A stretch of DNA of 64,000 nucleotides from Yuukianura sp. NJ FZ-2021 (lineage: Eukaryota). Where the stretch lies: contig CM102286.1 in the NCBI GenBank assembly GCA_046563655.1, forward strand, positions 6,758,001-6,822,000. The letters run 5' to 3'. The position numbers and the translations under genes are program-made. The notes below the pieces were generated by a model. It saw only the letters and a list, made by a program, of their open reading frames with translations. It was not told the DNA's origin and made no database searches. Below are positions 36,214-43,100 of the stretch, in pieces; the stretch's first letter is position 1; every line of letters begins with the position of its first letter.

Positions 36214-37865
<1,652 letters not shown>

Positions 37866-38981
37866 CTATATGATGGAGCTGATGCCAGAGAAGATAACGA
37901 TGGAGCTGATGAAAAAGAAGGTACCACTAAATTTCAAGAGGGCAGATCCGATTTATAACTTTTCAGTAGTAGTTTTGCACTAAATTCGCTAAATGAAGTC
38001 GTTGTAGTACTACCTAACCTAGTATTAATATTTCACCTGTGATTTATTTACCTGTTGCCAGATATTACCAAGAATTCAGCGCTGCAGCTCCTCAACCATC
38101 CTACTACTACTACTGCTTGTCTATGCTTTTTTCTCTTTCGCTTTGTGATTAGTTGAATTACAATTTTCGTCTTACGAAATACACTTTGAACTTCGTGTTC
38201 ACTTCGGTGAGGGTGGTGTCCAGATTTGAGTCGAGATTATTATATTTTCTATTAGCCCAATCTTACTGTTATATCAGTATTAGGAAAAATACGTTATATT
38301 TTTAATTGTTTTAACTCAGATCAAGTACTTCGGCAAACAATATTAGAACCACAGAAAATGCAGTAGCAACCCGTACTAACAATTGGTATCAATTCAGTCT
38401 TTCTTTTTATATTTTGAAATACTATTTTTAAAGTGATCTGTAGCAATATAACTCCCGTGTCAAAATTCTAGTATTTGCCAAAACCAGTGAAAATTGAATA
38501 AAATCAATATATATTTTCATATGCGATCGTATATTACATATTGTATTATAAATGTTCTAATGCTAAACATGTACTTCAAAATAATTTTCTACATTGAGGC
38601 TTGCAGTCGAAAGGAAAATCCGGAACAATATCGGTTTACATGCTCCATCAAATGTTCTTCTAGTATAATGAAAATATGCATAAGCAAATATGTCTGGAAG
38701 TTAAACCTACCGCGCTTTTATTCTACTACCGCATCACTTTTCGTCATTTTATGTTTTCATTGAAATCTCAAATTATTGTTAATTGACAGATTTCGTGAAT
38801 GATTTGAACCAAATATGGATGTCAGTTTTAATATCCAGAGTGACCCGATTGATGAGATATGACATGATGAATCATGATAAGCAGTAGAAGCTATAATATG
38901 AACTGTAATTGCGGGATGGTTCAAGTGGTGGGACATGAACATGCGGATGTCATGGATAGTAGCGGCAGAATCCCGGGAATC

Positions 38982-39010: not shown

Positions 39011-40163
39011 GAATTCTTGCAGAAGATCTTGGTTGTTGATGCTACTGCTGGCCAAAATGCGCTTCAGAAGCCCATTCGGAATCATGTCGAATAATTCCCC
39101 AGTGCCAGCCAAGGTAGTGGATTCCATACTATGGTAGAAGTAGAGTCAAAGCCTCTTAAGAAGAAACAAACTTTTGTGCTTTTCAAACCGAATCCTAAAA
39201 ATCTTGATCCAGCTCGTAAGAATTCATTTGAGTAACTTTTGCAAGAAGCAACCCGAAACTTCAACTTCTTTTTTTTTCCTTTTTAAAATTTCATCTACTT
39301 TTAGAATATGGAGTAGCATAGAAAAGGAATAATATTCACGTACAGAATTAAGCACGCACTTTTACTTTACTTCCATTCATCCTTTTGTAAACATTGCACA
39401 TTGAATTTGTTCAACTTCCGGCAATTTACCAGCCTCGTAAAGTCCACACTGAAACAAAAATTCTGTCAAGGCTTTTTCATTTTTCTGCGTCACTGAAACA
39501 GTCAAACACAAAAGTCAGACGGCGATAGATGTGAAAATGATGAAAAATTTAGAATTCCAAAATTGATTTTTTTCTTTTTGGAAATTCATCAAGGAACGAG
39601 GTGAAAGTAAGCCGTAGATTGCTTTTCATTCGCTCATCACAAAATTCTTAAGGCACGAAAACGATAAAAACCGTACGGACTTACAATTTAGTAGAATAAC
39701 TTTTTTTTAGTAATTAAAGAAAATTAGAGTTTTGCTAAACTCTGAACTCATCTTCATGTTATGGAAGGAGCAGTGCGTAAGAAGTCCAACTTAAATTTAA
39801 ATTTTGGGAAACATTTTGAAAGACGCATTTCGTTTAACGAACATTACATATGAAAACGACTGCCTGAATAATTAGCATTGACTCATCGCATCTAGAATTT
39901 ACAAAGTGCTAACTCGTGTAAGTAAGTTTGCGTTGGGATTGAATTGAGGCTGGTGAGAATGAGATTGAGAGGGATTGTGAATTTGGGAGGAATGTCCAAA
40001 TACGGCAAAATCACCTCCCTTCTCATATCCCTCAATCCACTCCAGTACCAGCTCAGCTGTTACAAGGGTAACAGCATCAACAATCCACCATCAACCAATT
40101 AAGTCAACCAGTGTCCATGCCAAGTTAGCTCCAGTCATCAACTACTTCGTCACAATCACTACA

Positions 40164-43100
40164 ATGCAAAGTCTAGACGCAACTACCCGTCCACCATCCT
40201 TCTCCGCAATGTTGTCAGCAGGAAGTGATCCTTGCTTCGGAGGAGATCACGGAGGACATCACGACTTCTCAACACTCAACGGATCTTCGGCCGGGTCAAA
40301 TCCAAATGGACAGACCGAATTCGGACATCTTATGAACAGCACCCAGCAACACCATCATCACCATCACCACTCCCATCATCCAGAAACAAATAATAACAAC
40401 ACAAATGCAGCCAATCACAACAGCAATCCGTCCAAACCGAAGAAAGTACCACCGCCTAATGGGAAGAAGACCAAGGGCCGGGTCAAGATCAAGATGGAGT
40501 TTATTGATAACAAGCTGAGGCGCTACACTACATTTTCTAAACGCAAGACTGGCATCATGAAAAAGGTAAGATTAAGCTGATTCTCTATGTAATGAAAAAT
40601 TTACTTTTTAGTTGAGGTTTTTAAATTTCAAGCTTTCCGGGTTGTGAAAAAATTATGGCATGCTTGGTCGGTGAATCACTTTAGCATAGGTTTAGAAATT
40701 GAACATTAACTTGCTTTGTTTCAAAACGTTGTCAGGATCAGTTCATCAGATCAGCATTAAATCAGCATGAAAATCTTTCGATAATTTTGCCATCCCATTT
40801 AAAATATGATTTTTTGAATTGACCCGGGAAATCTCTCTTCAAAATTAGTACTAGAAATATAAAAAATTAGTTCACTGATCAGACTCGAGTTAAGAATAAT
40901 TCCATAACTCCATTATGCAGTTATGTGTGTTTTTATTTAAAAAAAAAGTGATATGCTGTCTGCGGAATGACAGTGTAGCGACATAATATTTGTAGTGAGG
41001 ATTAGAATTAGAAAGCATGCGCTTATTCGAGAGAAATTACGAGGAGTACCGGAGTATTTTAACTAGGGTTGCCCCGATACATCGGTTGGCCGATACATAT
41101 AGGCCTATTCTTGGCCTGTTTTTTAGAATAGGTGGATCGGCCGAAAAATGTTTTGGCCAGTTAAACTGGCCAGTTTTTACCTATTCTTTTTACTCAGAAA
41201 TTTATAAAAAATTTCACGAATTTCATCGAAAAATACTGAACTAACAAATTATAAACAAGATTTAGCTAACCTAGGATGCTGTTTTCGGTATTTTATGTGA
41301 ATAATTAGTCAAAAGAAAGTAGTTAAAACGGTATAAAAGGTTAACTAATTCAAATTACACAAGTGAGCACTTAATTCCCAATTTAAAAAAACATCACAGA
41401 ACGACGCCGAGTCATCTGTGGGTATTGCTGTGTAGGAAAAAAAACCGGCCGATGTATCGGCCGATGTATAGGTTTGCCTGTTCTTGGATTTGGAAAAAAA
41501 TAGGTGTATCGGGTATCGGCCAAACCAAGAATCGGGGCATCCCTAATTTTAACAGTGAATCTCTCTACTGATTCAATGTAAATTCAGTAAGATTTTTAGT
41601 CCTAGTGCTAGTGCTACTGCTACCGACTACGCTGAAACATTCGAGTGCAACACCAGAGGGAGCTTAAAACTGACTGTGAATCTAGAGCTCCATTTTAATT
41701 GCACCCGCTGGAAGTATTTAACAAGTTAGTTATATGACTTGATTTTACAAAATCAAAATTCTATCAATTTCTTTCATCGTTCGGCATTAACCATAACAAC
41801 ATTGTTTAAGCTTGGTCTTTGGAGCGCTGCAGATTTAGACTTGACACCGAAACAACTCACAGCATCATACTTTACTAACTAAAACTACCTGAAGTATCCT
41901 TTTAGTATTTGAATTTGATTGAAAACACACAAAAATGGGAAACCCACCTAGGAATCTTTTTCTTAAAAAATTCCTATTCCACACTTTTCTTAAATTTTAA
42001 ATTAAATGTTGTTGGTACATATTTCCCAAATATTAAATACTAGTGTTTAATTTTGAGTCCTCAAGTTTCACTTTCACCTGTCATCCAGGCAAGAACTATT
42101 TCATTTCCAGTGGATGTAAATGATTTGTGACAAGGATTGAATTCGCGAGTAGTACAGTAGTGGTGAGCGTGACCCAGAAGTTAATCTCTGTTAAGAATCG
42201 GCTCCAGCTAATCTCTTGCGTCTCTGCTGGAGGAATTCAAGTTAAATTGATTTCTGTCTTAGACATTTCCTTCTACTTGTTCTAAAACAAAAAACAACAC
42301 ATAAACCTGTAACAAAATTGTTTGAAAATATTTTTCAACCTGAGAAAAAAAGATTTTTTCTGATATGAGACTACTACAACCGAATGTAGCATTTGGGGAA
42401 AAAAAATCTAAACTTAGTTTTGTCCGAAAAATCAAAGATTCGACGAAGAACCACAAATTTTCTAAAAGCCAAGCCGAACCTTCAATCTCGCAAACAATTC
42501 TCTCCAAATACTCCACACGGAAAAAAAATTGTTTTAGCATAGCACATTTTATAATGCTGCATCGTTTTACTAAAAAAAAATTAAACTTTAACACAAACGC
42601 GTTTGGGTGAAAAATTTCTTTTCTTTTCTTTTTTGACTGGAAGAGGGAAGTCTTTGGATGAAAGAAAAATTTTTATATTTAGTCTATACCCCATTCTTTG
42701 TTTTATTGTAATAAAATGTGGATTGTGGAAGCAGTCGGAATTTAAAAGAAATTCAAGTTACACTGCAAAAGGAGTGTCTAGCTGGACACGCAATTTGGCG
42801 ATTTTAAAACTCGAATGTCTTTTTGGATATTTGAAAAAGTGAGCAGAAAAAAGACGTATATAGATGAAGAATATACATCTCACCTATTTATAACAAATTA
42901 CAATTACACATATTGAAAAATATTTTCTCGGGAAACTTTTTTTATGGATTGATTTACTCGATACTCCGAGATTTCATACATCCTCTTCTCCATTTTTATT
43001 TTTAAGATTTTCGGCTAACATAAAACTTTGGTCACTTTTTCTAATATGCGCCACAAATGAATGAATACTGCCATCGTAGCAAAGCACTAATTTTTGAGTT

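What the first reader, a model, noticed from the sequence alone, without database searches (positions are those of the whole stretch)
37863..37958. Probable stop-codon readthrough adding a KDEL-like ER-retention tail (RSDL) to glutaminyl cyclase
Seen: the QPCT stop is TGA followed by CTA. The same frame stays open for 30 codons (LYDGADAREDNDGADEKEGTTKFQEGRSDL) to a TAA at 37956-37958, and it contains a frame-preserving 27-nt duplication (DGADAREDN/DGADEKEGT). Established: UGA-CUA is among the leakiest stop contexts in animals, and KDEL receptors accept variants (MANF proteins end in RTDL/RSEL). Inference: readthrough may split one signal-peptide enzyme into a secreted pool and an ER-retained pool, a secretory-pathway counterpart of readthrough-encoded peroxisomal signals.
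Basis: partly seen in the sequence, partly recalled or inferred. Interest (0 to 1): 0.85.

Follow-up and report, generated by a model that had tools for sequence, protein, structure and literature searches.

The report
Leaky stop adds ER tail to glutaminyl cyclase
A springtail-like glutaminyl cyclase gene ends at a leaky stop codon followed by a short in-frame tail ending in an ER-retrieval-type motif, and the same arrangement recurs in water fleas and a copepod, so a small share of this secreted enzyme is probably kept in the ER by reading through the stop.

Summary
A five-exon glutaminyl cyclase (QPCT) gene ends at TGA 37863-37865, followed by CTA-T. Thirty open codons then end in RSDL before TAA 37956-37958, and they contain an in-frame 27-nt tandem duplication.

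The window alone proves little: 30 open codons have a chance probability of about 0.17.

- **Recurrence:** of 16 evaluable animal-type QPCT loci, 6 carry a hydrophilic post-stop tail ending in [D/E][L/F]. These are RSDL, KTEL, HSEF, NSEL, KTEF and DGEL. The base rate is about 1%, and 0 of 32 control frames match.
- **Lineages:** the positives fall in Collembola, Cladocera, Copepoda and one unplaced lineage.
- **Paired comparisons:** the stop is kept or swapped (TAG/TGA), the flanking codons change synonymously, an indel is in frame, and alignability ends at the second stop.
- **Sense-codon relatives:** three copepod proteins have a sense codon at that site and a constitutive tail ending VEF, VEL or TEL.
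- **Fungal type:** these cyclases end directly in KDEL-like motifs.

No RNA, ribosome or peptide evidence could be obtained.

Verdict: probably functional readthrough that adds an ER-retrieval signal. I found no such case in print.

The parts
36214..36309 (+). QPCT exon 1 (coding part): ATG and a hydrophobic N-terminus [19 protein letters not shown]..., a likely signal peptide
   Evidence: The donor is AAG|gtaatg. The N-terminus lines up with the signal-peptide regions of relatives. No signal-peptide predictor was run.
36392..36541 (+). QPCT exon 2
   Evidence: Acceptor cag|TAC, donor GAG|gtattt. The translation matches springtail relatives.
36877..37004 (+). QPCT exon 3
   Evidence: Acceptor tag|TAT. 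I read the donor as CG|gtaact, which splits an Arg codon.
37090..37411 (+). QPCT exon 4 (Peptidase_M28 core: [14 protein letters not shown])
   Evidence: Pfam PF04389, E = 1.6e-15. Coordinates.
37497..37862 (+). QPCT exon 5, sense codons up to ...YLHLDPS
   Evidence: Pfam PF04389, E = 1e-12. 69% identical to the best relative. Translation.
37863..37865 (+). First stop, TGA, proposed to be leaky
   Evidence: The stop is kept as TGA in the springtail relative L001.
37866..37869 (+). CTA-T directly after the stop (readthrough context UGA CUA)
   Evidence: L001 has CTA-G. UGA CUA is the human high-readthrough consensus (PMC4359377 passages).
37866..37955 (+). 30-codon in-frame extension: an acidic, hydrophilic linker plus the terminal motif
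   Evidence: GC is 0.411 against 0.332 in the 3'UTR. The hydrophobic fraction is 0.23.
37872..37923 (+). In-frame tandem duplication, two copies with 27-nt spacing (DGADAREDN / DGADEKEGT)
   Evidence: 37872-37896 and 37899-37923, 84% identical. L001 has a single copy.
37944..37955 (+). Codons AGA TCC GAT TTA = RSDL, a KDEL-like C-terminal tetrapeptide
   Evidence: L001 ends in AAA ACT GAA TTA = KTEL, so three of the four positions differ by conservative changes and the TTA is identical.
37956..37958 (+). Second stop, TAA
38497..38502 (+). First AATAAA on the + strand after the gene, a candidate poly(A) signal
   Evidence: There is no AWTAAA on the + strand between 37866 and 38497, so no canonical signal lies before the second stop.

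Best explanation
The glutaminyl cyclase mRNA ends in a leaky UGA (UGA-CUA-U). Most ribosomes terminate there and make the ordinary 354-residue enzyme, which has a signal peptide and leaves the ER with its cargo.

A minority decode the UGA with a near-cognate tRNA and add 31 residues. These form an acidic, probably unstructured linker that ends in RSDL. That end belongs to the KDEL class, close to RTDL of MANF and RSEL of fly Manf.

KDEL receptors in the early Golgi would then bring the long form back to the ER. One gene would give a travelling pool and an ER-resident pool of the enzyme that cyclises N-terminal Gln/Glu.

**Shown here:** the sequence anatomy; the recurrence of stop plus KDEL-like tail in several arthropod lineages; conservation of the stop and of the tail's ends.

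**Inferred:** that the tail is translated, how often, and that it causes ER retrieval.
For: 1. **Recurrence.** Six of 16 evaluable animal-type QPCT loci have a post-stop tail ending in [not P][D/E][L/F]. They are the window (RSDL), L001 (KTEL), L002 (HSEF), L006 (NSEL), L007 (KTEF) and L033 (DGEL). The base rate is 107 of 11617 and 46 of 3756 random ORF ends. The binomial P is 2.4e-8, or 7.3e-7 for 5 of 15 without the window. Zero of 32 control frames match.
2. **All fetched loci.** Across all 80 metagenome loci, 77 were evaluable. The only 5 post-stop matches are these arthropod-type genes, and 15 fungal-type genes carry the motif constitutively.
3. **Lineages.** The window and L001 sit in the springtail clade (98* and 95* support). 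The last 119 residues of L006 are identical to the protein named Daphnia pulex QPCT-like. L002 is another cladoceran. L007 is a copepod, 63% identical to Eurytemora carolleeae.
4. **Coding-type conservation, cladocerans.** L002 and L006 are 67% identical as proteins. The stop differs (TAG against TGA). The next codons are CAA/CAG, TTT, GGG, GGA/GAA, GAC/GAT. The indel is 9 nt. The ends are AGT GAG TTT / TTG. Nothing aligns after the second stop.
5. **Coding-type conservation, springtails.** The window and L001 share TCC TGA CTA nAT GAT GG, and their ends are RSDL and KTEL.
6. **Stop-to-sense exchange.** Copepod proteins P0185, P0236 and P0243 have K, E or L where L007 and most relatives stop, and they end RVEF, TVEL and TTEL.
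7. **Known leaky contexts.** UGA-CUA occurs twice and stop-CAR-UUU twice. Both motifs are named in PMC4359377. The base at +4 is C in 5 of 6 positives against 2 of 10 negatives (Fisher one-sided 0.024). None of the 6 positives uses TAA, against 4 of 10 negatives.
8. **Tail composition.** The hydrophobic fraction is 0.15-0.38 in positives. In negatives of 10 residues or more it is 0.40-0.67. The window's extension has GC like the exons.
9. **Motif space.** At -3 any residue but Pro works. At -2, E is much better than D, but D still works. At -1, L and F are equal. RTDL, KTEL and KDEF proteins are in the ER (PMC2140024 passages). RSEL works in flies.
10. **ER-resident cyclases exist.** Neurospora QC-2 has KDEL and is in the ER (PMC5241404). 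The oyster protein ends in KEEL and Lycorma isoform X2 ends in NDEL.
Against: - **No direct evidence of translation.** No RNA run was listed, so there are no reads, footprints or peptides.
- **The window alone is weak.**
- **RSDL is a weaker signal.** It fails the strict PROSITE pattern. Asp at -2 gave only partial ER localisation in a human reporter, and RTDL is called a relatively weak signal.
- **Thin sampling.** Only one other springtail locus with DNA was available. The middle of the tail is not alignable between the two.
- **Ten of 16 evaluable loci lack the tail.** These include L005 and L014, the sister of L033.
- **Weak members.** DGEL (L033) has an unfavourable -4 residue, and L007's UAG-GAU is not a known leaky context.
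- **Locus identities.** The loci are metagenome contigs, and I inferred their taxa from protein similarity only.
- **No structure.** No stimulatory RNA structure follows the stop (z = +1.27 and +1.81).
Confidence: 0.62

Rival explanations
1. The tail is translated by readthrough and kept by selection, but its role is not KDEL-receptor retrieval. It could instead change stability, sorting to granules, or enzyme properties.
For: The terminal motifs are non-canonical (RSDL, NSEL, DGEL, HSEF). None fits the strict PROSITE pattern quoted. Many KDEL-variant human proteins stayed in the ER even without their motif (PMC2140024 passages).
Against: The most conserved part of the tails is the last two or three residues, [D/E][L/F]. 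That is exactly what the receptor reads. Fungal-type cyclases carry canonical versions at the same place.
Confidence: 0.12
2. In this window the open frame and RSDL are neutral features of a 3'UTR, with at most background readthrough. The relatives' tails are real but this one is not under selection.
For: The chance of 30 open codons is 0.17. Asp at -2 is suboptimal. The middle of the tail does not align with L001. The case was picked by eye.
Against: TCC-TGA-CTA-nAT-GAT-GG is shared with L001 although the enzymes' last exons are only 55% identical. RSDL and KTEL differ only by conservative changes. The GC content is like the exons. The duplication preserves the frame.
Confidence: 0.13
3. The tails are decaying remnants of an ancestral, constitutively encoded ER-retrieval tail, cut off by independent nonsense mutations. 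The enzyme would now simply be secreted.
For: Constitutive tails exist in fungi, oyster, some Hemiptera and three copepods.
Against: The stop sits at the same place in two deeply diverged pairs: 67% protein identity between the cladocerans, and 55% in the last exon between the springtails. The tails nevertheless remain open, keep their ends, and differ by an in-frame indel. Relics would accumulate stops and frameshifts.
Confidence: 0.07
4. The stop is bypassed by another route. This could be A-to-I editing of UGA/UAG to UGG, selenocysteine insertion at UGA, or a splice variant that skips the stop.
For: All six first stops are TGA or TAG, never TAA, which editing would also predict.
Against: - **Editing:** there is no stable RNA duplex around the stop (z = +1.27 and +1.81).
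- **Selenocysteine:** the TAG/TGA swap between the cladocerans argues against it.
- **Splicing:** the tail directly abuts the stop, leaving no room for an intron. L002 and L007 are contiguous, cDNA-like ORFs that still carry the stop.
- **Context:** the contexts match known readthrough motifs.
Confidence: 0.04

Closest known systems
Readthrough-encoded peroxisomal targeting signals (human LDHB and MDH1; fungal PGK and GAPDH)
   Same: A leaky stop, with UGA-CUA in LDHB, is followed by a short extension whose last residues form a C-terminal sorting signal. One gene therefore serves two compartments. The distribution across species is a mosaic with alternative splicing and constitutive forms (PMC4359377 passages; PMC4973966 passages).
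   Different: The signal here is of the KDEL type and would act inside the secretory pathway on a protein with a signal peptide, not on a cytosolic enzyme. It has not been tested experimentally.
MANF/ARMET (RTDL), Drosophila Manf (RSEL), CDNF and AGR2 (KTEL)
   Same: These are soluble secretory-pathway proteins with weak, non-canonical KDEL-like ends that give partial ER residence and partial secretion. RSDL is a hybrid of RTDL and RSEL. L001 ends in KTEL.
   Different: In those proteins the motif is encoded before the stop, so every molecule carries it. Here only readthrough products would carry it.
Fungal ER-resident glutaminyl cyclases (Neurospora crassa QC-2, KDEL)
   Same: The enzyme family is the same, with a KDEL-type C-terminus after a hydrophilic linker. 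Pyroglutamate formation occurs in the ER (PMC5241404 passages). Fifteen fungal-type loci end in xDEL, xTEL, xSEL or xSDL.
   Different: The fungal motif is constitutive, with no stop in between.
Mammalian QPCT (secreted) plus QPCTL/isoQC (Golgi-resident, N-terminal anchor)
   Same: There are two pools of the same activity, one travelling with regulated cargo and one resident in the early secretory pathway (as described in PMC5241404).
   Different: Mammals use two genes and a membrane anchor. Here one gene and a recoded stop would achieve the same result.
Drosophila and Anopheles conserved readthrough genes (PhyloCSF and ribosome-profiling sets)
   Same: They are arthropod genes with a conserved stop and a protein-like extension.
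   Different: Dunn et al. searched their fly extensions for [KH]DEL and found none (PMC3840789 passages). The words glutaminyl, isoQC, CG5976 and CG32412 do not occur in the text or in the 2 searchable supplements of PMC5100048. One supplement file could not be searched.

Membership tests
Glutaminyl-peptide cyclotransferase (animal type II QC, Peptidase_M28 fold) | Match to Pfam PF04389 above the curated cut-off | tested here: met
   Exon 4 scores 57.8 bits and exon 5 scores 48.6 bits. The cut-off is 21.3.
Glutaminyl-peptide cyclotransferase (animal type II QC, Peptidase_M28 fold) | Orthology to named animal QCs over the whole length | tested here: met
   The best named hits are springtail QCs at 62-68%. 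All five exons translate in line with relatives. The window lies in the springtail clade with 98* support.
Glutaminyl-peptide cyclotransferase (animal type II QC, Peptidase_M28 fold) | Metal-binding and catalytic motifs (DSAVPC, DGEEA, the His of VWH; residue roles recalled, not tested) | tested here: met
   The motifs are present in the translation and lie in invariant or nearly invariant alignment columns.
Glutaminyl-peptide cyclotransferase (animal type II QC, Peptidase_M28 fold) | N-terminal signal peptide, i.e. a soluble luminal protein | tested here: inconclusive
   The N-terminus is hydrophobic, [19 protein letters not shown]...VAA. No predictor was available.
Functional (programmed) stop-codon readthrough genes | Stop codon in a context known to be leaky | tested here: met
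   The context is TGA CTA T. UGA CUA is the human consensus, and UGA CUA T was tested in CACNA2D4. Leakiness in springtails was not tested.
Functional (programmed) stop-codon readthrough genes | Conserved stop, with protein-like evolution of the extension up to the next stop | tested here: met
   Only two-species comparisons were possible per clade, and no PhyloCSF-type score was computed.
Functional (programmed) stop-codon readthrough genes | Ribosome footprints, peptides or reporter activity beyond the stop | not testable with these tools
   No RNA run was listed and no genome is held.
KDEL-type ER retrieval signal, strict PROSITE pattern [KRHQSA]-[DENQ]-E-L | The last four residues fit the pattern | tested here: not met
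   RSDL has S at -3 and D at -2. The pattern is quoted in PMC2140024. The tail is therefore not filed as a canonical KDEL signal.
KDEL-like variants shown by experiment (Raykhel et al. 2007 motif space) | -4 K/R/H/N or aromatic; -3 anything but Pro; -2 E (D weaker); -1 L or F | tested here: met
   RSDL fits, with the weaker D at -2. Natural xxDL examples in the ER are RTDL, KEDL, REDL and QEDL.
KDEL-like variants shown by experiment (Raykhel et al. 2007 motif space) | The motif causes ER localisation of its carrier | not testable with these tools
   This needs a localisation experiment.

The most novel reading that the evidence does not exclude
Stop-codon readthrough that appends a KDEL-type ER-retrieval signal is an old and recurrent way for pancrustacean arthropods to split one glutaminyl cyclase gene into a travelling pool and an ER-resident pool. 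It occurs in springtails, water fleas and copepods, and over evolution it interchanges with constitutive and alternatively spliced tails. This would be the first natural case of a readthrough-encoded sorting signal acting inside the secretory pathway. It would also imply that searches using only [KH]DEL have missed a class of such extensions.
Probability: 0.55. Interest if true: 0.85.

Novelty: new variant of a known kind. Interest (0 to 1): 0.8.

Why it matters
Functional readthrough is known to add peroxisomal and nuclear signals. Surveys that looked for ER-retention signals in extensions reported none, both in flies with [KH]DEL and in Arabidopsis. My four literature searches found no paper describing such a case.

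If this case is real, it extends dual targeting by recoding to the lumen of the secretory pathway. It also explains how animals could supply pyroglutamate-forming activity both early (ER) and late (granules or secreted) from one gene.

It is directly testable in Daphnia pulex, a laboratory species. A ratio set by stop leakiness would also be a simple, tunable way of dosing a resident enzyme.

Tried and rejected
- **Own genome:** none is held for this window.
- **Earlier notes of this scan:** nothing was found by place or by words.
- **RNA runs:** none was listed for 37000-38600. As a result, read laying could not be used, and neither the TGA nor the poly(A) site could be checked against reads.
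- **More animal loci:** scans of genome contigs (80 loci kept of 480 relatives) and viral contigs (1 locus) returned only bacterial, archaeal or giant-virus-bin relatives and no animal QPCT. The DNA behind the closer springtail proteins P0001, P0003, P0005, P0128, P0141 and P0171 could not be fetched.
- **RNA structure after or around the stop:** none was found beyond shuffles.
- **Poly(A) signal inside the extension:** there is none.
- **L014 against L033:** these are sister loci, and L014 does not share L033's tail.
- **Readthrough gene lists:** no QC gene name was found in the text or the 2 searchable supplement files of PMC5100048, and one file could not be searched. The supplements of the 2026 Drosophila preprint (PMC13278127) are closed and might list QC genes.
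- **Selenocysteine, editing and splicing:** I considered these readings and judged them unlikely (see the rival explanations).
Full report
**1. The observation**

The window carries a five-exon gene on the + strand. Its coding parts are 36214-36309, 36392-36541, 36877-37004, 37090-37411 and 37497-37865. The product is a glutaminyl-peptide cyclotransferase. Pfam Peptidase_M28 matches exons 4 and 5. In a search of the last exon against longer proteins, 290 proteins passed E <= 0.001 among 402 candidates, and the best 120 were listed. The closest named ones are springtail enzymes, Orchesella cincta at 68% and Folsomia candida at 62%.

The last exon ends ...YLHLDPS, then TGA at 37863-37865, then CTA-T. 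The frame stays open for 30 codons, LYDGADAREDNDGADEKEGTTKFQEGRSDL, to TAA at 37956-37958. The in-frame duplication is real: 37872-37896 and 37899-37923 are 84% identical with 27-nt spacing.

**2. How much the window alone says**

It says little.
- At the stop density of the downstream 3'UTR, 30 open codons have a probability of about 0.17.
- A random ORF end matches [D/E][L/F] in about 1% of cases, 46 of 3756 in the window and 107 of 11617 in the fetched loci.
- Two small points favour coding. The extension has GC 0.411, like the exons (0.434, 0.445) and unlike the 3'UTR beyond the TAA (0.332) or the introns (about 0.354). No AWTAAA lies on the + strand before 38497.
- No RNA structure stands out after or around the stop (z = +1.27 and +1.81).

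**3. Relatives**

No genome is held for this window and no RNA run was listed, so I used metagenome contigs. A pattern scan with an alignment of springtail-like cyclases found 422 stretches encoding relatives, and the best 80 were kept.

I read each locus past its first in-frame stop. Of the 80 loci, 77 could be read and 3 run off their contig.
- **Constitutive motif:** 15 loci, all of the fungal type, end directly in a KDEL-like motif such as DKDEL, DRSEL, NKTEL, EKDEL or LPSDL.
- **Post-stop motif:** 5 loci have a post-stop tail ending in [not P][D/E][L/F].
- **No motif:** none of the remaining loci does. Those are bacterial-type genes, or loci where the match ended at an intron (L026, L028, L029, L032, L035, L036, L038, L040, L058), so their true ends were not seen.

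The five post-stop cases are all arthropod-type genes.

| Locus | Sequence around the stop |
|---|---|
| L001 | ...YLHLSS TGA CTA G, tail of 26 residues ...NDKTEL |
| L002 | ...YLGLQF TAG CAA T, tail of 16 residues ...VAHSEF |
| L006 | ...YLQVNV TGA CAG T, tail of 13 residues ...ANNSEL |
| L007 | ...YLNMAP TAG GAT G, tail of 13 residues ...QQKTEF |
| L033 | ...YMQIEQQ TGA CGG G, tail of 18 residues ...HRDGEL |

**4. Statistics**

I chose 17 animal-type loci by hand, counting the window. I dropped the duplicates L044, L050 and L052, and I left out the fungal and bacterial types. L009 runs off its contig, which leaves 16 evaluable.
- Six of the 16 are positive. The binomial P is 2.4e-8 at a base rate of 1.22%.
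- Without the window, which was picked for this feature, 5 of 15 are positive (P = 7.3e-7).
- The two other frames after the same stops give 0 of 32.
- The base at +4 is C in 5 of 6 positives against 2 of 10 negatives (Fisher one-sided 0.024).
- No positive uses TAA, against 4 of 10 negatives.
- Positive tails are hydrophilic, with a hydrophobic fraction of 0.15-0.38. Negatives of at least 10 residues have 0.40-0.67.

The positives are not all independent, because they form two pairs and two singles.

**5. Who the loci are**

A quick maximum-likelihood tree of the C-terminal region (81 rows, 137 columns, SH-aLRT support only) gave these placements.
- The window falls in a springtail set of 12 rows (98*), together with Folsomia, Orchesella and Allacma.
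- L001 sits in that set, next to Folsomia and Orchesella (95*).
- The last 119 residues of L006 are identical to the protein that NCBI names Daphnia pulex QPCT-like isoform X2.
- L002 is 67% identical to that Daphnia protein and lies in the same clade.
- L007 is 63% identical to Eurytemora carolleeae and lies among many unnamed copepod-like proteins.
- L033 is unplaced. Its sister L014 has no such tail.

**6. Signs of coding constraint**

*Cladocerans.* The stop itself differs (TAG against TGA). The next five codons are CAA/CAG (Gln, synonymous), TTT, GGG, GGA/GAA, and GAC/GAT (Asp, synonymous). A 9-nt indel follows. The tails end in AGT GAG TTT and AGT GAG TTG. After the second stop the sequences no longer align.

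*Springtails.* TCC TGA CTA nAT GAT GG is shared, including one synonymous GGA/GGC change. The ends are AGA TCC GAT TTA and AAA ACT GAA TTA, so R/K, S/T and D/E are conservative changes and the Leu codon is the same. The middle does not align.

*Copepods.* Of 108 further proteins listed, most stop two residues after YLH[LM], as L007 does. Three continue with a sense residue at that site and end in a KDEL-like motif:
- P0185 (named Eurytemora carolleeae isoform X3): ...HLSA-K-EEENQRVEF
- P0236: ...HIA-E-NDGSKNRVHTVEL
- P0243: ...HLIS-L-NDKKSRNQVHTTEL

Exchange of a stop for a sense codon over a tail that stays protein-like is what conserved readthrough predicts. L002 and L007 are contiguous full-length ORFs without introns, so they look like cDNA, and they still carry the stop. 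That excludes a splice that removes it.

**7. What is known (papers read as found passages, not in full)**

- UGA CUA is the human consensus for high basal readthrough. UGA CUA T (CACNA2D4) was tested, with G at +7 giving the highest values. A stop-CAR-YYA motif is known from viruses and yeast (PMC4359377). The two cladoceran contexts, CAA TTT and CAG TTT, fit CAR-YY.
- That UGA-CGG is a viral leaky context is my recollection, not a call.
- KDEL-receptor motif space (PMC2140024):

| Position | Requirement |
|---|---|
| -4 | K, R, H, N or an aromatic residue |
| -3 | Any residue but Pro |
| -2 | E strongly preferred, D partly active |
| -1 | L and F equal |

- RTDL (ARMET), KTEL (AGR2 and others), KDEF and PGEL proteins are in the ER (PMC2140024).
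- Fly Manf ends in RSEL. Deleting it lowers ER localisation and raises the secreted share. RTDL is called relatively weak (PMC3760817).
- Neurospora QC-2 has a signal peptide and KDEL, and it acts in the ER. Mammals have one secreted and one Golgi-anchored cyclase (PMC5241404).

**8. Mechanism proposed**

Most ribosomes stop at UGA and make the ordinary enzyme, which leaves the ER. A few percent insert an amino acid. From recall, this is usually Arg, Trp or Cys at UGA. They then add an acidic linker ending in RSDL. KDEL receptors return this form from the early Golgi to the ER. The leakiness of the stop would set the ratio between the two pools.

The anatomy and the conservation are shown here. 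Translation of the tail, its rate and its localisation are inferred.

**9. Rivals**

- **Translated, but for another purpose:** possible. Against it, the conserved part of the tails is precisely the receptor-read end.
- **Neutral in this window only:** possible, because D at -2 is weak and the middle is unalignable. The shared TGA-CTA-nAT-GAT-GG and the RSDL/KTEL match argue against it.
- **Relic of a lost constitutive tail:** unlikely, because the stop is old in two clades while the tails stay open.
- **Editing, selenocysteine or splicing:** unlikely, for the reasons in sections 2 and 6.

**10. Novelty**

- Searches for 'glutaminyl cyclase' with 'readthrough' found 0 papers.
- 'Stop codon readthrough' with 'ER retention' and 'KDEL' found 2 papers, and 'readthrough' with 'KDEL' and 'C-terminal extension' found 3. 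Of the four distinct papers, I opened two as passages and judged a third unrelated from its title and abstract. The fourth, the preprint version of the Arabidopsis paper, I saw only as a listing. None reports such a case.
- In the 20 papers listed of 257, none held 'translational readthrough' together with 'ER retrieval' or 'HDEL'.
- Two surveys looked for ER-retention signals in extensions and reported none. One covered flies with [KH]DEL (PMC3840789) and one covered Arabidopsis (PMC9293766).
- The library lacks most subscription journals, and the supplements of the 2026 fly preprint are closed, so a prior report cannot be excluded.

I rate this a new variant of a known kind: readthrough-encoded sorting signals are known, but this signal class, compartment and enzyme are new.

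**11. Verdict**

My confidence in functional readthrough giving ER retrieval for this gene is 0.62. Interest is 0.8.

Noticed in passing
window 39981-40580 (+): An open frame downstream of QPCT ends in ...GRVKIKMEFIDNKLRRYTTFSKRKTGIMKK and matches the Pfam SRF-TF (MADS box) domain (E = 1.2e-6). It is preceded by a His/Asn-rich low-complexity stretch. It is likely the first coding exon of a serum-response-factor homologue.
   Followed up: partly
proteins P0143 (Cryptotermes secundus) and P0127 (Blattella germanica), against P0142: Termite and cockroach cyclases have a second annotated form. After YLHLQ it continues into a hydrophobic tail...IPIVTMGASSSPLLFLLPLLTPSRVLL..., which looks like a membrane anchor or a GPI-type signal. 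This would be another route to a non-secreted pool.
   Followed up: no
proteins P0087, P0178, P0234, P0237-P0242, P0246, P0249, P0271 (copepod-like, unnamed): A subgroup ends in a conserved Cys-containing tail...GC(N/T)x(E/Q)(F/L)C(F/V/E)L(S/T/N/F). The xE[F/L] lies three to four residues before the end rather than at it. Its meaning is unknown.
   Followed up: no
proteins P0084 (Lycorma delicatula isoform X2), P0095, P0101, P0096 (Crassostrea virginica): These are animal cyclases with constitutive tails ending in NDEL, YIEL, YPEL and KEEL. The Lycorma form is labelled an isoform, which suggests alternative splicing supplies the tail there.
   Followed up: no
proteins P0002 (Orchesella cincta) and P0179 (Allacma fusca): The annotated springtail proteins leave the family consensus about ten residues before the usual end (...ARYLEGFNGG......FVATLTCPRS...). 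The last exon is probably mis-modelled in those annotations.
   Followed up: no
L161 (viral contigs): A giant-virus metagenome bin carries a distant M28/QC-like stretch, 41% identical over 49 residues.
   Followed up: no
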